The notes: generated by a model not told the origin, from the sequence alone. A stretch of 42,353 nt of DNA from a virus (IMGVR_UViG_2654587736_000008), one strand, 5' to 3'. Positions 2,331 to 28,086 are shown, counted from the stretch's first letter. Translations and numbers: made by a program.

Positions 2331-3061
2331 TTCCGCTGCGGCTTCTGCGCGGTCTGCCGCCTTTTCAGCTCGTGTCGCTGCCGACAGAGCCTCATCCTTT
2401 TTCTGCCCGGCCTTTGTTGCGTCTGCTGCAGCCTCCCGCGCTTTTGTGGTGGCGACTCCGGCATTTTCAGCGGCTGACTCTGCATTACGGCGGGAAGCTC
2501 TTCACTGTCTGCGGAGGCTTCTTCTGACGCACGGGCATTTGTCTCTGAACGTTCTGCCGCTGTTGCTGCGTTTTGTGCGGCTGTTTTTGAAGAAGCTGCC
2601 GCTTTCGCGCTGTTACCTGCATTCGTCTCTGATGTTTTCGCCGCGTTCCTGGACGATGCCGCTGCTGTTTCTGATTTCTTTGCTGCCGCTGCGCTCTGAG
2701 AGGCGGCTTCAGCGTTGCGTGCCACATCCTCCACCATTACCTCAAAACGACGCAATGCCTCCGGCATGACATCCTCTTCCGTCATGGCACCCAGAAAATC
2801 ATTCAGCGTCCCCGGCTTAGAATCCTCATACACGGTGATGGTCCCGGCATGTGAAGGCGGAAAACCTTCAACCAGCAGGATAACGCTGTACTGGCCATAC
2901 TCGACATCCATGCTGTAACGTCCGGCTTCATCCGGATTTTCTGAGGCCACCGTGTTCACCACCACCGTGCTGCTGGTCCGTCTGGCCTTCAGCACAATGG
3001 TGCAGTTCTGTACTGGTTTTCCTGTGCCATCTTTAAGCACGCCAGAAATTTTTACTGTCAT
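2327..3061 (-). CDS. stf: Side tail fibre protein, N-terminal portion (lambda Stf-like); reading frame breaks near 2495-2505
   Basis: N-terminus MTVKISGVLKDGTGKPVQNCTIVLKARR...GRYSMDVEYGQYSV closely resembles lambda Stf; the last ~60 residues of this ORF are basic low-complexity, consistent with out-of-frame translation. Confidence 0.7.
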   Translation of the reverse strand: MTVKISGVLKDGTGKPVQNCTIVLKARRTSSTVVVNTVASENPDEAGRYSMDVEYGQYSVILLVEGFPPSHAGTITVYEDSKPGTLNDFLGAMTEEDVMPEALRRFEVMVEDVARNAEAASQSAAAAKKSETAAASSRNAAKTSETNAGNSAKAAASSKTAAQNAATAAERSETNARASEEASADSEELPAVMQSQPLKMPESPPQKRGRLQQTQQRPGRKRMRLCRQRHELKRRQTAQKPQRK

Positions 3062-3075
3062 ACTTTTCCACCAAT

Positions 3076-3106
3076 AAAAAAAGCCCGCAGCAGTGACGCC
3101 ACGGGC
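3076..3106 (-). terminator. Terminator-like hairpin between lom and stf
   Basis: On minus strand GCCCG...CGGGC followed by TTTTTTT; the loop is long, so only moderate confidence. Confidence 0.35.
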
Positions 3107-3212
3107 TTCAGGACAGTGTAACTTTACGTTTCCTCAAACGCAGTTCACTCCATAAGGCGGATGAACCTGCGTATCATAACAATATTTACAGAAGATAAAT
3201 CGGCGTCTGTTG

Positions 3213-3812
3213 TCAGAAACGGTATCCGATACCAACAATAAATGCATCCGTTCGCCAGTCGCCACTACCGGAACCTTCATAAGCAAGGTCAATGGTCACG
3301 GATTCGGTCGGGTTAAACTGCACGCCAGCCCCCCACGCCAGAGACGTGTTGCTGTGGCGACCGTCATCACTTCCGGTCAGCACATCGTGCGTTTTCCCCT
3401 TGTTGTCAGTTACGCGGAGATAATCCCCGGAGAAAGTCGACACACGGCTGTAAGCCACACCCGCCATCGAATACGCGCTGAACCATTCATTCACGCGTAC
3501 AGACGGCCCCGCCATCACGCTGAACCAGCGGTTACGCACGGAATCTTCATGCCAGCGGGTATCGCTGTAGTGCGTTTTTTGCTCATCCTCAGCATTGGCA
3601 TAACTGAAGGACGTAATCAGCCCCAGCGCGTCCGTAAACTCATAACGGTATTTCACGTTAATCCCGTTCAGATTATCGCTGCCGGGAGCGTTCGTACGGG
3701 CATGAAGATACCCCGCGCTCAGTGTGGACTGATGTTCAGACGCCCATGCAGGCGCACCGGATACGGACAGACAGATGGCTGCGGACAAAATGACTGCACA
3801 AACTTTACGCAT
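3213..3812 (-). CDS. lom: Lom outer-membrane protein (Ail/Lom/PagC family)
   Basis: 199 aa; signal peptide then SEHQSTLSAGYLHA...GINVKYRYEF...GIGYRF, near-identical in pattern to lambda Lom. Confidence 0.9.
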   Translation of the reverse strand: MRKVCAVILSAAICLSVSGAPAWASEHQSTLSAGYLHARTNAPGSDNLNGINVKYRYEFTDALGLITSFSYANAEDEQKTHYSDTRWHEDSVRNRWFSVMAGPSVRVNEWFSAYSMAGVAYSRVSTFSGDYLRVTDNKGKTHDVLTGSDDGRHSNTSLAWGAGVQFNPTESVTIDLAYEGSGSGDWRTDAFIVGIGYRF

Positions 3813-3833
3813 AATTACCTCTCGCTTTTCTGC

Positions 3834-3860
3834 AATAAAAAAGGCGCCATTTCTGGCGCC
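3834..3860 (-). terminator. Intrinsic terminator downstream of J
   Basis: Minus strand: 7-bp stem GGCGCCA-GAAA-TGGCGCC followed by TTTTTTATT. Confidence 0.6.
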
Positions 3861-3879
3861 CGTATATGGGTTATAAAAT

Positions 3880-6800
3880 TCAGCTGATACTGATGCCTGC
3901 GGTGGCTTTCTTCATCACCACAACCAGCAAATCGCTGATACTTGCTGTGGGATACCAGTTATTCACCAGCCATGCTGACACCGAAAACTCCAGCGTCATG
4001 TGGCCGCGACCAGCTGGCATATCAATAACACCACTGTAAATCAGCGTATTATCCAGCGCGGTACGGTTATAAATTTCAGCACCGTTTTTCCGTACTATCA
4101 GGCGGCATGACGAATAAATATCGTTATTCTCCCGCTCATGTTTAGCGCCGCTGAATGCCACCGCCGGAATAACAATCTGCCGGTCAAACGGCTGATCGTC
4201 ATAAACCCTGACGGTGATGGTCCCTGATGGCCACCGTTCCGGTGCACGGGAGTCCCGGGGGAAAGCTTTGCCCACTGTTTTAACGAGATCGCCTTCAATC
4301 TGGTTGGCGGACAATTTTCCCAGAACCCGACAGTTCTCGTTAATCGTGACGTTGTTGAGCGTCCCGGAGTTCGCATTCACGTTACCGCTGATATCGGCAT
4401 TTTTCGCCGTCAGCCGCCCGTCCGGTGTCAGGGAAAATGCCGGAGGATTACCGCCGCTGGTAATGGTCGGAGCCGTCAGGCGTTTCAGGAACACGTCGTT
4501 CATGAATATCTGATCGCCCTGACCAACAAACATCGGCTTTGTGTTGCCATTCGCAGGATTAATCATCGCAATCCGGTCAGCAGCCAGAAGCACCTGACTC
4601 TGCATACCTGCTGGCGTATTCTCAATACCGGCTCCGATACCCGCAATATAAAGGCGTCCGTCCTTCATCTGCTGCAGTTTCACGGCCCACATGCTGTTCA
4701 GGTTATTATTTGTATCAACCTGAACTTTCTGTATCTGCTGGATTGCCGCACTCTGGTCTTCCAGTTTTTTATTGACGGTCTGCGTGATTTCATTGCTGAC
4801 ATTCGTAATGGACGTCCTGATTTCAGCCAGGTCCGGCGCAAGCTGACCGTTATCAATCTGCGTCCACAACTCCTGGGCCAGATGTGTTTTCCCGATTTCT
4901 CCTTTGAAAAAATCCAGGTAACCTTCCGCATCATCGCTCGCCCGACCGACAGCCTCCACGAATGCCGATTTGCCAACGGTGTTCACACTGCGAACGTAAA
5001 AATAATAATCATGGCCCGGTTTGATATTGATACTGGCGGCTATCCAGTACAGCGCCGTACCAAGATAGCGGGCTGTGGTTTCAACCTGCCTGATATCGGT
5101 AATCCGCTTTTCCGAGAACCAGAACTCAAACTGTACCGTCGGGTCATAAACAGCAAGATGCGGCGTGGCGGTTATCTGAAAATAGCCCGGCGTCAGCTCA
5201 ATCCTCGACGGTGCTGCCGGTGCGGCAATCCGGAACGATACCGACGCCGGATCGCCCTGCTGCCCCCGGGCATTTACCGCCCGGACTGTCAGCCTGTAGT
5301 TCCCCAGCGCCAGTTGCGTGAAGCGGTATGTGGTTTCCGTCGTCCGGGCCGTGCTGACCAGTCGCTCACTGCCGTCGTCCGCTGTTACGGTCAGACGGAG
5401 CAGGAAGCTCACGCCCTTCACCACCTTCGGTGTGTCCCATCGCGCCAGCACCTGATATTCCCCGCTGTCTGCAGTGACTTCGGCGGTCAGGTGCTGCACT
5501 GCTGGCGGCGTGACACCATTCACCGTGCCGCTCTGGTCACCGTCAAAGTGCGCCCCGTTATCCACGATGGCTTCTTTCTCCGGTACATGCTGCACGGCGG
5601 TGATGGCATACGTGCCGTCATCGTTCTCACGGATACTCACGCAGCGGAACAGGCGCTGGCGCAGCGTCGGCAGCTTCAGCCCCCACACGCTGTATTCTGC
5701 AACGCCGTCAGGAACACGGCTCACTTTCACCTTCACGCCGTCGGTGACGGACTGGACCTCCACGCTGACCGGATTACCCTGACCGTCAACCAGGCTTATC
5801 AGCGTGGTACCGGAGGATGGCAGCGTGATTTCACGGTCGAGCGTCAGCGTCCGGGTCTGGCTGTTCACCGCCAGCACGCGACCACCGGTGCTGATACCGG
5901 CATAGTCATCATCGCAGATTTCAATGACATCGCCCGGTACATGGCGAAGCCCTTCAGCACCCACGCTGAAATCCACGGTCTGCGTCTCCAGCAGTTCCGT
6001 TTTAATCAGCCACAGCCCGGCGCGGTGTGCCTGCCCCCGGCTGGTACAGCCAAAGGCATCCATCTTCGTGACGTTACGACCGTAACGGGCAATGGCCTGC
6101 GTGTCCTCCACAAGCTCTGTTGCCGTTTCCCAGCCGTTATCCGGGTCAGTCCAGTTCACCTCAACGGCATTATGGCGGTCCTTCAGGGCGCTGAAACTGT
6201 AGCGGAACGGCGCGCCATCATCCGGCATCACCACATTACTGCGGTTATAGGTCCACACCTTATCTGATGGTCGGTCCTGCACGAACGTCAGCGTCTGCCC
6301 GTTCCATACCGGCATACAGCGCATCGCCGAGCAGAAATCACTGAGCACATCCCACGCCTTGCGCTGTGTGGTCAGGTAAGCGTTACAGGTGATGCGCGGC
6401 TCCGTGCCGCCAAAGCCGTCCGGCACCGACTGGTCGCAATTCTGGCCGATGACATACAGCGCCCATTTATCCACATCCGCCGCACCAAGACGTTTCCCCA
6501 TGCCGTAGCGCGGATGGGTCAGCATATCCCACAGACACCAGGCCATGTTGTTGCTGTATGCCGGTTTTAACGTTCCGTCCCAGATACCGCTGTATTGCCG
6601 CGTCTGCGGGTTATAGTTCGACGGCACCTGCAGAATGCGCCCGCGAAGATGATAATTACGGCTCACCTGCTGGCTGCCGAACTGCTCCGAGTCCACCTGC
6701 ACGCCAACCAGTGCCGTGTTCGGGTAGCACTGTTTCACATCGATGATTTCGGTGTATGACGACCAGAGCGTTTTGTTCTGCAGCTGGTCTGTGGTGCTGT

Positions 6801-25494: not shown

Positions 25495-26547
25495 TTATTT
25501 CCCCACCAGCTCGTTTATCTCTTTCACTGTCTGGTTAAACCGCTCTGACTCAAGCTCAACACCTAAGGCCCGACGCCCCAGCGCCATTGCTGCTTTTATT
25601 GTGGAACCGGATCCCATAAAAAAATCAGCAACCAGATCACCTGGTCGACTACTGGCATTGATTATTTGCCTGAGCATATCCGCCGGTTTCTCACACGGAT
25701 GTTTCCCCGGGTAGAACTGAACGGGTTTATGCATCCAGACATCGGTATAAGGCACGGAGACTGATACGGAGAAATAGCGCCGGAGAGATTTAAACTCATC
25801 CAGCAATTCAGAATATTTGCGATTCAGTGAATCATAAGATGCCACCAGCTGGTGGTGTGGTTGTTCCAGTTGTTGTTCCTGAAACTTCTCTGCCGCTATA
25901 CGGGAAAACAGTGCCTGTAACTTCCGATAGTCAGCCTCATTCGGCAACTGCCACTGACTGGCACCAAACCAGTGGGAAACCATATTTTTCTTACCTGTGG
26001 CTTCGGCAATTTGTTTTGCCGTTATACCCAGTTCGGCACGAGCATCCCTGAAATACGAAATCAGCGGTGCCATTATGTGCTGTTTGAGTTCCCTTTCTTT
26101 TGCCGCATAGCCGTCACTTTTGCCGCGATATGGCCCCTGGTAATGTTCAGCAAACAGAACGCGCTCTGTGGCAGGAAAATATGCACGCAGACTTTCTTTA
26201 TTACACCCATTCCAACGTCCGGACGGCTTCGCCCAGATGATATGGTTAAGCACGTTGAAACGTTCACGCATCATGATCTCAATATCAGATGCCAGGCGAT
26301 GCCCACAGAACAGGTAAAGGCTTCCGGCAGGTTTTAACACCCGCCAGAACTGGGCCAGACAGTGGTCCAGCCACTTAAGGTAATCTTCGTCCCCTTTCCA
26401 CTGATTGTCCCAGCCGTTGGGTTTCACCTTGAAGTACGGCGGATCGGTAACAATCAGGTCAATGGAATCATCAGGCAGGGACTGAATAAAATGCAGGCAA
26501 TCAGCGTTGATTAAATCAACACTGTTTATTTTTACAGTATTTTTCAT
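25495..26547 (-). CDS. DNA N6-adenine methyltransferase, beta-class (DPPY before FxGxG), orphan
   Basis: 350 aa; motif IV VTDPPYF near the N-terminus and SAM-binding DFFMGSGST near the C-terminus; no adjacent restriction gene. Confidence 0.8.
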
Positions 26548-26697
26548 GGATCAGTAAGCGTAACTCTGGTAGGCTCACTCTGCTTTTGCGCTAAAGCAGT
26601 GGGCCGTGGTTCGCTTGTGACCAGTAAGCATGAGCGAATGGCTGGCAGGTGCTACCAACACCCACCAGCCGCCCATTTTCACAGCAGGAAACCGCCA

Positions 26698-26925
26698 TTA
26701 CTGGCAGCGTCTGAATTTATTCCCGTACCCGCCGTTATCCTTCGCCAGACCCGCCAGAACTAACTGAGTCAGTATTAACTGGCACCGGGCTTCGCTTACT
26801 CCGGTAGTTCTCGTCATCATGCGTGGCGTTACCCACTTGTCAGCAGGTAAGAAATGAAGGACTGCGGCGGCGGTTTCTGTCATATCTTGCTGTTTTAGCA
26901 TGTCTTTTTCCCTTCTGGTTAACAT
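26698..26925 (-). CDS. Small wHTH-like protein, hypothetical (75 aa)
   Basis: ORF immediately upstream of the methyltransferase; alternative start at 26901 with SD AAGGGA. Confidence 0.4.
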   Translation of the reverse strand: MLTRREKDMLKQQDMTETAAAVLHFLPADKWVTPRMMTRTTGVSEARCQLILTQLVLAGLAKDNGGYGNKFRRCQ

Positions 26926-27023
26926 GACATACCAATAACTCTTGTCTAAAAAGCCAGCAAGATAAAAAGTCAGTATTCACGACCACCAGCGTGTTTACTG
27001 TACTGCACCAAGTTTACAGGTAC

Positions 27024-27046
27024 AAAAAAAACCGCTCAGCGGCGGG
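27024..27046 (-). terminator. Intrinsic terminator (candidate tR'-like)
   Basis: Minus strand CCGCTGAGCGG hairpin followed by eight T. Confidence 0.5.
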
Positions 27047-27079
27047 TTTAAGTTGTGTGGCGAAGTAACCACTCTTAAC

Positions 27080-27107
27080 AGCATATTTGATTTTTTACGA
27101 TTGTAAA
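27080..27107 (-). promoter_or_regulatory. Candidate sigma70 promoter on the late strand (possible PR'-like), about 45 nt upstream of the terminator
   Basis: Minus strand TTTACA-N16-TATGCT. Confidence 0.3.
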
Positions 27108-27172
27108 CGGTTGATTATTCATCTCCAATAAAAATAATTGTGTGGGTATACCCTTAGCAATGGATAAGAAAC

Positions 27173-27619
27173 ATGAATAAAATGACTGTACTATTACTTA
27201 GCGCAACTATCATTTCAGGTTGTACTTCTTCCGTACCATTGATAAAGAAAACTCAATCAGGAAAACCTGAGGGGGTTTATCAAAATACGACAAAAGATAA
27301 AGTCAAAGATGCCCTTGTGAATTACTGCAATAGTAGAGGGTTGATAATTTACAACGCGGATAACAGCAGTGTTATATGTGGTAAAGAACTGGAAGGCGGC
27401 TCTGCTGTTTTTGGACAAATGTTAATCGGAAATGCCTATTCAACAACCCCGGTATCAAAAGTCAGATTTACTATCGCTCAAGTTAATAACGATACAAAAG
27501 TGTGGGCCGATATGTGGATGGAAACTCAAATGGCAATGGGGCAAGTACAACAAATGGCTATAACAGACAACGCAAGCAAAAACACTATCCAACAACGTCT
27601 TGATGAATTAAAACCTTAA
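27173..27619 (+). CDS. Lipoprotein, hypothetical (moron on opposite strand)
   Basis: 148 aa; signal peptide with lipobox LLSATIISGC; gene and flanks are AT-rich; opposite strand to Q and the late genes. Confidence 0.7.
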   Translation: MNKMTVLLLSATIISGCTSSVPLIKKTQSGKPEGVYQNTTKDKVKDALVNYCNSRGLIIYNADNSSVICGKELEGGSAVFGQMLIGNAYSTTPVSKVRFTIAQVNNDTKVWADMWMETQMAMGQVQQMAITDNASKNTIQQRLDELKP

Positions 27620-27639
27620 GTAAACTAATTAAATAAAAT

Positions 27640-27661
27640 GGGGAGAATAAATCGACTCCCC
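27640..27661. terminator. Hairpin between convergent lipoprotein and Q genes
   Basis: GGGGAG-N10-CTCCCC; on the minus strand it is followed by ATTTTATTT. Confidence 0.4.
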
Positions 27662-27703
27662 ACACATTAAACTGATTCAATTACCCCCTCAATAAGAGGT
27701 CTT

Positions 27704-28069
27704 CTAACGATCCATCTCTAGCTCAATTTCTAACATCATTAACATGCCATCAACTACACCTTCAGCCTTTTGCAATAAACGCCCAACCCAGCAATCAGAA
27801 CGCCCATGTTTACGGGCAAGCGCCATAAACGTCATACCACCTACATAATAATCCACTAATAAATCGTGCAAATCGCTGTTGTTCTTTTTCAGGCGAGCCA
27901 TGCACCCACAAATGATCATCGCGTCATCGTCACAACATTGCGGGCGGGATTTTACTTTTGAAGGGATTAGTCCTTTAAATCCTGCAGCAATAGACGACCA
28001 GGTGACATCCTCGTGATTATTTGCCACCCATGCCCCCCAACGTTCAAGAACCATTTGAATATCACGCAT
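27704..28069 (-). CDS. quuD: Late-gene antiterminator Q (phage 21 / QuuD-type)
   Basis: [14 protein letters not shown]...[18 protein letters not shown]...[11 protein letters not shown], as remembered for DLP12 QuuD; ATG 28069 with SD GGAG (ORF track begins at a TTG 28084). Confidence 0.8.
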
Positions 28070-28086
28070 CAACTTTCTCCACAAAA

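What the first reader, a model, noticed from the sequence alone, without database searches (positions are those of the whole stretch)
27173..27661. Opposite-strand lipoprotein moron beside the Q antiterminator
An AT-rich gene for a 148-aa lipoprotein (lipobox ISGC) is transcribed against the flow of the late region, bounded by a hairpin shared with the end of Q. This is the slot where other lambdoid phages carry conversion genes; an outer-membrane lipoprotein here could act in superinfection exclusion or host interaction.
Basis: inference. Interest (0 to 1): 0.5.

Follow-up and report, generated by a model that had tools for sequence, protein, structure and literature searches.

The report
Prophage lipoprotein add-on gene beside Q
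This is a real, self-contained accessory gene ("moron") in an E. coli lambda-like prophage. It encodes an exported lipoprotein of an uncharacterised phage family, sits in a known accessory-gene slot, and most likely protects the lysogen's envelope against other phages, though that function has not been tested.

Summary
ORF 27173-27619 (+) encodes a 148-aa protein with a canonical lipobox (LLSATIISG|C17). Its GC content is 0.38 against 0.50 in the flanks. It converges on a Q antiterminator of the Q21 family and is separated from it by a 7-bp hairpin.

The gene is under strong purifying selection and occurs in 185 of 5426 complete E. coli genomes. It matches PHROG 3152 (function unknown) over its full length and has no Pfam, NCBIfam, PADLOC or PDB sequence relative.

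The slot, between the Q stop codon and the -35 of the late promoter, is the one that holds the nmpC/lc porin gene in DLP12-type phages. The gene therefore lies upstream of the late promoter, not inside the late transcript.

New here: more distant homologues (40-72% identity, in Salmonella, Citrobacter, Morganella, Proteus, Photorhabdus and Haemophilus) almost all sit co-oriented inside lambda-like tail-tip clusters. They occupy the H|M, M|L and K|I junctions. Most are low in GC and most are followed by a canonical terminator, so they are classic morons.

The predicted fold is a small alpha+beta domain resembling BamC, Flpp3 and KA1 domains.

The most likely function is prophage-expressed exclusion of superinfecting lambda-like phages at adsorption or DNA entry (about 0.4, inferred). 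I class it as a new member of a known kind, of moderate interest.

The parts
27109..27703 (.). Moron cassette: the whole inserted block between the Q stop codon and the -35 of the late promoter
   Evidence: GC is 0.37 against 0.50 in the flanks. DNA similarity to DLP12-type phages stops at the end of Q (~27710) and resumes at GTTTAC, 27107. The block is 98-100% conserved in 50 IMG/VR loci.
27111..27138 (+). Promoter-like site for the lipoprotein gene (TTGATT-16-AATAAT)
   Evidence: Consensus scan gives 9 of 12 matches. This is a consensus match only and is not verified. It sits 3 bp from the divergent -35 of the pR'-like site.
27173..27619 (+). Lipoprotein gene, 148 aa, stop codon included
   Evidence: (PHROG 3152, E 1e-104).
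27173..27223 (+). Signal peptide (residues 1-16) plus the lipid-modified Cys17 of the lipobox I-S-G-C
   Evidence: Read directly from the sequence. Cys17 is invariant in alignments A1 and A3. 118 of 148 top profile hits have a lipobox-like motif.
27639..27662 (.). Hairpin between the converging stop codons of the lipoprotein gene and Q. It looks like a terminator only on the - strand.
27704..28084 (-). Q antiterminator of the Q21 family (longest ORF). RefSeq and PhiR40_1 annotate a 366-nt version, which would place the start at 28069.
   Evidence: PF06530, E 2e-51. PF06530 is the Q21 family according to PMC9388147. Annotation.
27080..27107 (-). Probable late promoter pR' (TTTACA-16-TATGCT), directly abutting the cassette
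   Evidence: The site is conserved, together with the initially transcribed region GTTAAGAGTGGTTACTTCGCCACACA, in Kati/DLP12-type, cdtI and phiP27 phages. This agrees with the DLP12 lysis-operon promoter lying upstream of essD (PMC7918800).
27024..27046 (-). tR'-like intrinsic terminator about 40 nt downstream of the pR'-like -10 hexamer (short GC stem plus T8)
   Evidence: The stem is kept across phages while the loop differs.

Best explanation
The block 27109-27703 is a self-contained moron inserted between the Q gene and its late promoter in a DLP12-type lambdoid prophage of E. coli.

It is probably transcribed from its own sigma-70 promoter while the prophage is repressed. The product would be exported through Sec, lipidated on Cys17 and, because Thr is at +2, carried by the Lol pathway to the outer membrane. 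There a 131-residue alpha+beta domain, probably stabilised by a Cys52-Cys69 disulfide, would face the periplasm or the cell surface.

I think the most likely job is superinfection exclusion. The lipoprotein would interfere with adsorption or, more probably, with the periplasmic DNA-entry step of incoming lambda-like siphophages. It would do this by binding a conserved envelope component or the incoming tail tip or tape-measure protein.

What is shown: the gene, the signal, purifying selection, the slot, the moron architecture and the tail-cluster association of the family. What is inferred: expression in the lysogen, localisation, and the exclusion function and its target.
For: Real, selected gene.

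Canonical lipobox with an invariant Cys.

Moron features: low GC, a promoter-like site and a hairpin, and absence from related phages that carry an 83%-identical Q.

Location of the homologues: 33 of the 42 loci with 31-72% identity examined lie, co-oriented, inside lambda-like tail-tip clusters. They sit after the tape measure, between M and L, between K and I, or upstream of the tape measure. All phages in which the tail could be seen have lambda-type H-M-L-K-I-J tails, and so does this window.

Moron features of the homologues: 18 of 24 phage copies examined carry a canonical GC-stem plus T-run terminator right after the stop codon, and most have GC 3-15 points below their flanks. This is the design of genes meant to be expressed from a repressed prophage (definition in PMC3594210).

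Precedent: the tail-operon moron HK97 gp15 is an exclusion protein whose specificity maps to the incoming tail, and Cor is an exclusion lipoprotein (PMC3594210; HK022 annotation).

Orientation argument: in E. coli the gene survives in the opposite orientation upstream of pR', where late expression is not expected. This argues for a role in the lysogen rather than late in infection.

Conserved surface: W111, D113, W115, E117 and Q119 are invariant on one strand, and the G86-N87-x-Y89-S90 loop is invariant too. Conservation across genera suggests a conserved binding partner.
Against: No member of the family has any tested phenotype.

There is no sequence or fold link to known exclusion proteins. 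Cor aligns only over the signal peptide. There is no PADLOC hit, and nothing in BFVD at E <= 1e-3.

Tail-cluster junctions are generally permissive for morons of many functions, so location is weak evidence.

Receptor-blocking lipoproteins (Cor, Llp) are smaller and tied to one receptor (my own knowledge). Here the J receptor-binding ends differ between carriers: PF12421 is present in the window's J but not in the L010 J.

The family has chromosomal relatives fused to PDZ or TPR/BamD-like domains. This fits a general envelope role just as well.

The promoter is only a 9-of-12 consensus match, and the hairpin has no T-tract on the gene's own strand.
Confidence: 0.4

Rival explanations
1. Lysogenic-conversion factor for host fitness rather than phage defence. 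In this reading the envelope lipoprotein improves survival of the lysogen. Possible routes are serum or complement resistance as with Bor/Iss, adhesion, envelope-stress tolerance, or altered outer-membrane protein biogenesis through a BamC-like domain.
For: It has the same architecture as lambda bor and lom: a prophage-expressed outer-membrane protein gene. The window also carries lom.

The same slot in DLP12/PA-2-type phages holds a porin, which is a host-physiology gene.

Distant relatives are chromosomal and fused to PDZ or BamD-like TPR domains.

Carriers include extra-intestinal and avian pathogenic strains such as NU14 and APEC 102026.
Against: There is no sequence relation to Bor/Iss or any Pfam family.

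The tight association with lambda-type tail modules across six genera is not predicted by a pure host-fitness role.
Confidence: 0.28
2. Periplasmic inhibitor or orphan immunity protein. The lipoprotein would neutralise an incoming cell-wall or envelope-active enzyme. Candidates are an NlpC/P60-type amidase delivered by type VI secretion, a bacteriocin, or a phage tail-associated peptidase.
For: It is a small exported protein with a probable disulfide and an invariant polar and aromatic surface.

Many copies lie directly next to gene K, which encodes JAB and NlpC/P60 domains.

From my own knowledge, immunity proteins against periplasm-acting effectors are often lipoproteins.
Against: It has no similarity to known immunity or lysozyme-inhibitor families. 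Adjacency to K is only one of at least four slots. No effector gene lies nearby.
Confidence: 0.1
3. Helper for the phage's own lytic cycle. It might mask receptors on cell debris so that progeny are not lost, as phage T5 Llp does late in infection, or it might modulate outer-membrane disruption at lysis.
For: In most phages the gene is co-oriented within the late tail operon. It would therefore be co-transcribed late by Q-modified RNA polymerase.
Against: The E. coli copy is on the opposite strand and upstream of pR', so it should not be made late. It is nevertheless strictly conserved, with pN = 0 against PhiR40_1 and intact in 185 genomes. Most tail-cluster copies have their own terminators, which points to autonomous expression. 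The gene is not in the lysis cassette.
Confidence: 0.1

Closest known systems
nmpC / lc porin morons of DLP12, PA-2, 434B and Kati-type lambdoid phages
   Same: The slot and orientation are identical. The gene sits between the stop codon of a Q21-family Q (83% nucleotide identity to this one) and the conserved pR'/tR' block, converging on Q. It encodes an outer-membrane protein.
   Different: Those genes encode a 16-stranded porin of about 365 aa. This one encodes a 148-aa lipoprotein with an alpha+beta fold. There is no sequence relation, and the cassette here is 0.6 kb against about 1.6 kb.
Cor, the exclusion lipoprotein of HK022, phi80 and N15
   Same: It is a moron-encoded outer-membrane lipoprotein of lambdoid phages, encoded near the tail genes and expressed from the prophage (PMC3594210).
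   Different: Cor is 77 aa. The profile alignment covers only the signal peptide (31 columns). Cor lies after J and acts on FhuA, whereas no target is known here.
HK97 gp15, the first described moron
   Same: It is an autonomous low-GC gene inside the tail operon. It excludes superinfecting phages at DNA entry, and its specificity maps to the incoming tail (PMC3594210). The homologues of the present gene occupy neighbouring junctions of the same operon.
   Different: gp15 is a small inner-membrane protein of the YebO family, not a lipoprotein, and is unrelated in sequence.
Ltp of Streptococcus phage TP-J34 and Llp of phage T5 (my own knowledge; PMC3952083 abstract for Ltp)
   Same: Both are phage-encoded lipoproteins that block entry. 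Ltp acts on the tape measure or DNA injection, and Llp acts by binding the receptor FhuA.
   Different: The hosts, folds and sizes differ, and neither appeared among the structure matches. The resemblance is one of working principle only.
Bor/Iss lipoprotein of lambda
   Same: It is a small prophage-expressed outer-membrane lipoprotein encoded by an opposite-strand moron near the lysis region.
   Different: There is no Pfam match to the Bor family or any other family. Bor lies after Rz, and its role is serum resistance.
BamC helix-grip domains, Flpp3 (DUF3568), DUF4468 and KA1 domains (fold level)
   Different: Identity is 6-12%, Foldseek E-values are all above 1e-3, and no sequence-profile link was found. 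The fold is common and does not define a function.

Membership tests
Moron (Juhala/Hendrix sense; definition quoted in PMC3594210) | An extra gene between neighbours that are adjacent or differently filled in related phages | tested here: met
   Phages whose Q is 83% identical carry nmpC here instead, and homology resumes at the pR' -35.
Moron (Juhala/Hendrix sense; definition quoted in PMC3594210) | Base composition differs from the surrounding genes | tested here: met
   GC is 0.37-0.38 against 0.50. Most homologues in tail clusters are 3-15 GC points below their flanks.
Moron (Juhala/Hendrix sense; definition quoted in PMC3594210) | Own promoter | tested here: inconclusive
   TTGATT-16-AATAAT at 27111-27138 matches 9 of 12 consensus positions. 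Upstream regions are not conserved between homologues.
Moron (Juhala/Hendrix sense; definition quoted in PMC3594210) | Own terminator | tested here: inconclusive
   The window copy has a hairpin at 27639-27662 but no T-tract on the + strand. By contrast, 18 of 24 homologous phage copies have a canonical terminator right after the stop codon.
Moron (Juhala/Hendrix sense; definition quoted in PMC3594210) | Expressed from the repressed prophage | not testable with these tools
   This needs RNA-seq or 5'-RACE on a lysogen.
Bacterial lipoprotein (signal peptidase II substrate) | Basic n-region, hydrophobic h-region, and a lipobox [LVI][ASTVI][GAS]C | tested here: met
   MNK-MTVLLLSATI-ISG-C17. The Cys is invariant in 64 sequences, and 118 of 148 profile hits carry a lipobox-like motif.
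Bacterial lipoprotein (signal peptidase II substrate) | Lipid modification, and outer-membrane sorting (no Asp at +2) | not testable with these tools
   The +2 residue is Thr. Across the family it is mostly Ala and never Asp among 118 sequences. This predicts Lol-dependent export, which has not been demonstrated.
PHROG 3152 (phage protein family, function unknown) | Full-length profile match | tested here: met
   E 1.3e-104, residues 1-148 on profile positions 1-148.
Cor superinfection-exclusion lipoproteins | Homology of the mature domain | tested here: not met
   hhalign of alignment A1 against HK022 Cor aligns only residues 1-31, the signal peptide.
Bor/Iss lipoproteins | Match to the Pfam Bor family | tested here: not met
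   No Pfam family at E <= 0.01 for the protein. None recurs among 64 family members at E <= 1.
Known anti-phage defence proteins (PADLOC-DB 2.0) | Profile match | tested here: not met
   0 families.
Q-to-pR' accessory slot of DLP12-type (Q21-family) lambdoid phages | Located between the Q stop codon and the conserved late promoter, initial transcript and terminator block | tested here: met
   The Q stop is at 27704 and the pR'-like -35 at 27107. The block TATGCT-GTTAAGAGTGGTTACTTCGCCACACA-terminator is shared with Kati, cdtI and phiP27. The promoter assignment itself is comparative, not experimental.

The most novel reading that the evidence does not exclude
The protein could be the founding member of a new, widespread class of Gram-negative exclusion lipoproteins. 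Rather than masking one receptor, these would target a conserved step of lambda-type tail-tip or tape-measure penetration through the periplasm. This would be an Ltp-like principle in Gram-negative bacteria. Alternatively it could act as a BamC-like mimic on the outer-membrane assembly machinery. Either reading would explain why the family is scattered through at least four junctions of the tail-tip module in six or more genera and conserves one invariant surface.
Probability: 0.2. Interest if true: 0.6.

Novelty: new member of a known kind. Interest (0 to 1): 0.36.

Why it matters
Morons are the main route by which prophages change the surface and the phage sensitivity of their hosts, yet most of them have no known function.

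This family is common. It is in 3.4% of complete E. coli genomes, the exact protein is found on 1000 or more contigs, and 823 cluster representatives were found across bacteria. It has no Pfam family and no tested phenotype.

Its repeated capture into the tail-tip module of lambda-like phages, together with a single transplanted copy in the Q-to-pR' slot, gives a concrete and cheap experiment: clone 0.6 kb and challenge with a temperate-phage panel. A positive result would add a new exclusion mechanism and a useful marker for predicting phage host range. A negative result would point to a host-fitness role in pathogenic E. coli lineages.

The comparison also pins down the architecture of the DLP12-type late control region. 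Q is followed by the accessory slot, and only then by pR' and tR'. This matters for annotating Shiga-toxin and related prophages.

Tried and rejected
- Pfam, NCBIfam and PADLOC scans of the protein gave nothing. Scanning 64 family members at E <= 1 gave only a lipid-attachment motif and a weak, non-significant DUF6491 hit in 6 of 64.
- Sequence searches of the PDB with two profiles matched only signal peptides of other lipoproteins.
- Foldseek against BFVD viral structures found nothing at E <= 1e-3. The AFDB library was unavailable.
- I considered that phage cdtI orf53, which is 147 aa in the same slot and orientation, might be a diverged homologue. BLASTP shows no similarity.
- I first assumed that PF06530 meant a Q82-type Q. 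PMC9388147 assigns PF06530 to the Q21 family, so I corrected this.
- I looked for a late promoter directly after Q, as in lambda. Only a poor match lies there. The conserved promoter, initial transcript and terminator block is beyond the cassette.
- Alignment of upstream regions of 10 homologues showed no conserved promoter.
- I tried to read Brenes & Laub 2025, the source of phages PhiR40_1 and PhiR55_1, which carry this gene. That paper may have tested prophage-encoded defences, but it is not held in the library. Searches for the accession WP_001033965 or for phrog_3152 found no paper.
- The UniRef label "VirB7" on the Xenorhabdus homologue is probably a generic lipoprotein-signal annotation. 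I did not follow it.

Full report
**1. The observation**

The window is an E. coli lambdoid prophage whose replication, nin, Q, lysis, head and tail genes are all on the - strand.

On the + strand, 27173-27619 is a 148-aa ORF starting MNKMTVLLLSATIISGC. It has a basic n-region, a hydrophobic core and a textbook lipobox (I-S-G-C17), with Thr at +2.

GC content falls to 0.36-0.41 across 26850-27900, against 0.47-0.58 on either side. By direct count it is 0.38 for the ORF, 0.37 for 27109-27703, 0.50 for the flanks and 0.51 for the whole window.

The next gene, 27704-28084 (-), is a Q antiterminator (PF06530, E 2e-51). PMC9388147 assigns that Pfam family to the Q21 family.

Between the two converging stop codons lies a hairpin at 27639-27662, with a 7-bp stem, a 10-nt loop and a free energy of -11.2 kcal/mol (z = -2.7). 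Only on the - strand is it followed by a T-rich tail. It therefore looks like a terminator for transcripts leaving Q and, at most, a 3'-end stabiliser for the lipoprotein mRNA. Every descriptive element of the finding is confirmed.

**2. It is a real, selected gene**

The protein matches PHROG 3152 (function unknown) end to end, with E 1e-104. It has no Pfam, NCBIfam or PADLOC match.

The same DNA is present in 185 of 5426 complete E. coli genomes. It is always chromosomal and always annotated "hypothetical protein". It is also in the temperate phages PhiR40_1 and PhiR55_1 at 98.8% identity. The exact protein is seen on at least 1000 contigs.

Homologues of 50-72% identity occur in Salmonella, Jejubacter, Citrobacter, Xenorhabdus, Morganella, Enterobacter and Phytobacter.

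Selection is clearly purifying:
- In alignment A1 the lipid-modified Cys is invariant, as are Cys69, G86-N87-x-Y89-S90 and K109-V-W-x-D-x-W-x-E-x-Q-M. Cys52 is nearly invariant.
- Against PhiR40_1 all differences are synonymous (pS 0.043, pN 0).
- Against the other genera synonymous sites are saturated (pS 0.72-0.85) while pN is 0.18-0.33. Against the Citrobacter copy dN/dS is about 0.12.

**3. The slot**

The Q gene is 82-86% identical in DNA to Q of DLP12, 434B, Kati and many other phages, and that similarity stops at the end of Q. In those phages the gene that follows, on the opposite strand, is the nmpC/lc porin gene.

Reading on along the - strand in Kati, past the porin, one reaches GTTTACGTACGTAAAAAATTGGTTATGCTGTTAAGAGTGGTTACTTCGTCACACAGCTTAAACCCGCCG...TTTTT. 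The window has the same block immediately after the lipoprotein cassette: TTTACA-16-TATGCT at 27107-27080, then GTTAAGAGTGGTTACTTCGCCACACAACTTAA, then a short GC stem and T8 at 27046-24.

Phages cdtI and phiP27 share the -10 hexamer position, the initially transcribed region and the terminator, but have their own -35 and spacer. mEp460, which has an unrelated Q, shares only the terminator and what lies downstream.

This is the pattern expected of a late promoter with a Q-specific upstream part, a promoter-proximal pause region and tR'. It agrees with the DLP12 lysis-operon promoter being placed upstream of essD (PMC7918800). The assignment is comparative, not experimental.

The layout is therefore Q, then an accessory slot, then pR'/tR', then the late genes. 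Different phages fill the slot differently:
- a porin in DLP12-type phages;
- two unrelated opposite-strand genes in cdtI (one DUF6731);
- a GIY-YIG nuclease in phiP27;
- the lipoprotein here.

However, the gene is not inside the Q-dependent late transcript. Only read-through from the early operon past the hairpin would run antisense to it.

The candidate promoter of the lipoprotein gene (27111-27138) has its -35 only 3 bp from the divergent -35 of pR'.

In 50 near-identical IMG/VR copies the block DUF968-Q-cassette-pR'/tR' stays together wherever the contig extends that far (Q in 49, pR'/tR' in 48), while the late region beyond tR' varies. This suggests a single insertion that has since travelled with this Q allele.

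**4. Where the rest of the family lives**

This is the main new result. I examined 42 loci with 31-72% identity. Of these, 33 place the gene, co-oriented, inside a lambda-type tail-tip cluster identified by Pfam (TMP_2/TMP_3 plus Tape_meas_lam_C, Phage_min_tail, Phage_tail_L, JAB plus NlpC/P60, Lambda_tail_I, GpJ domains). The positions are:
- directly after the tape-measure gene (for example L084-L087, L101, L015, L075);
- between M and L (L077, L080);
- between K and I (L010, L076, L089-L095, and L099 from Salmonella at 72% identity);
- once upstream of the tape measure (L088).

The closest non-E. coli relatives (72%, 70% and 63% identity) are all of this type. The Q-slot copy is therefore the exception.

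Of the phage copies examined, 18 of 24 have a canonical GC-stem plus T-run terminator within about 60 nt of the stop codon, and most have GC 3-15 points below their flanks. These are the defining features of morons as summarised in PMC3594210. HK022 has annotated morons at the same K|I and I|J junctions.

More distant members (31-36% identity, in Halomonas and Sphingosinicella) are chromosomal. The Sphingosinicella one, like other family members found by the profile search, carries a C-terminal PDZ domain; another member has TPR/BamD-like repeats.

The profile search found 823 cluster representatives at E <= 1e-3. Of the top 148, 118 carry a lipobox-like motif, with +2 mostly Ala and never Asp.

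**5. Structure**

AlphaFold2 run on alignment A1 gives a confident model (mean pLDDT 85, pTM 0.75). After the signal peptide and a linker it shows a two-layer alpha+beta domain.

The fold is common among outer-membrane lipoproteins but does not assign a function. The invariant W111, D113, W115, E117 and Q119 alternate along one strand, and the invariant G86-N87-x-Y89-S90 loop lies in the least confidently modelled stretch of the domain. Together they suggest a conserved binding surface. This is inference.

**6. Mechanism**

- Shown: a selected gene for an exported, lipobox-bearing protein, in an autonomous low-GC cassette, in a recognised accessory slot.
- Inferred from established rules (Sec, Lgt, LspA and Lnt processing; the Lol "+2 rule"): a lipidated protein anchored in the outer membrane.
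- Inferred from context: expression in the lysogen, and a function at the envelope.

I favour superinfection exclusion directed at lambda-like siphophages, at adsorption or periplasmic DNA entry (about 0.4), for four reasons:
- Every phage carrier whose tail could be seen has the same tail-tip type.
- The family has been captured repeatedly into that module.
- The characterised morons of this neighbourhood, HK97 gp15 and Cor, are exclusion proteins (PMC3594210).
- The E. coli copy is placed where it should be made in the lysogen but not late in infection.

There are also arguments against. There is no similarity to Cor beyond the signal peptide or to any defence profile. Tail junctions accept morons of many kinds. 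The J receptor-binding ends differ between carriers. That last point argues against simple masking of the phage's own receptor and towards a conserved target.

The rival explanations are a host-fitness or virulence role (0.28), a periplasmic inhibitor or immunity protein (0.10) and a helper in the phage's own lytic cycle (0.10).

**7. Verdict**

The finding is real and well described, and its structural interpretation is correct apart from the position of the late promoter. It is a new, uncharacterised member of a known kind: a prophage moron encoding an envelope lipoprotein. The family is already catalogued as PHROG 3152.

Interest is moderate. Nothing here would surprise a phage specialist. 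However, the family is common, has no known function, and now comes with a specific, cheap and falsifiable hypothesis.

Noticed in passing
window 27102-27116: The -35 hexamers of the lipoprotein promoter-like site (+ strand, 27111-27116) and of the pR'-like late promoter (- strand, 27107-27102) are back to back, only 3 bp apart. Homology with DLP12-type phages begins exactly at the pR' -35. The two promoters could interfere with each other.
   Followed up: partly
L039 4675-5937 (-), IMG/VR UViG_2778261122_000001: One otherwise identical prophage has an extra 420-aa ORF inserted between Q and the lipoprotein cassette, on the Q strand. It has no Pfam or PADLOC match. It may be another accessory or defence gene using the same slot.
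   Followed up: partly
L007 (phage cdtI) 2781-4169 (+); L008 (phiP27) 2713-3942 (-): The same Q-to-pR' slot holds two unrelated opposite-strand genes in phage cdtI (a DUF6731 protein and a 147-aa orphan) and a same-strand GIY-YIG nuclease in the Stx2e phage phiP27. The slot is therefore a general hot spot for accessory genes.
   Followed up: partly
window 26698-26925 (-): The first gene after the pR'/tR' block encodes a 75-aa protein of PHROG 331 (function unknown). Its homologue in phiP27 is annotated as a TrmB-family regulator. It is conserved at the head of the late operon in many phages, including Stx2c phages.
   Followed up: no
window 25495-26547 (-): An N6/N4 DNA methylase (PF01555) is the second late gene, between pR' and the holin. 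It would be made only late in infection and could protect progeny DNA.
   Followed up: no
window 3213-3812 (-): A full-length Ail/Lom outer-membrane protein gene follows J. The prophage therefore carries at least two outer-membrane accessory genes.
   Followed up: no
proteins P0030, P0016, P0031: Some assemblies contain truncated or chimeric versions. P0030 joins a frame from about window 26620-26720 to residue 94 of the lipoprotein, which implies a deletion removing pR' and the 5' half of the gene. P0031, from a 248-bp contig, joins part of Q to the middle of the lipoprotein and is probably an assembly artefact or an inversion.
   Followed up: partly
L004 (E. coli SCU-306 chromosome): In this genome every gene of the homologous prophage region is flagged as frameshifted. 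This looks like a low-quality long-read assembly rather than real decay.
   Followed up: no
PhiR40_1 and PhiR55_1 (PV340560, PV340571): The two sequenced phages that carry this gene are reported not to need ManYZ for infection and to be only modestly inhibited by the SNIPE nuclease (PMC13190303). These culturable phages are ready experimental material for testing the gene.
   Followed up: partly
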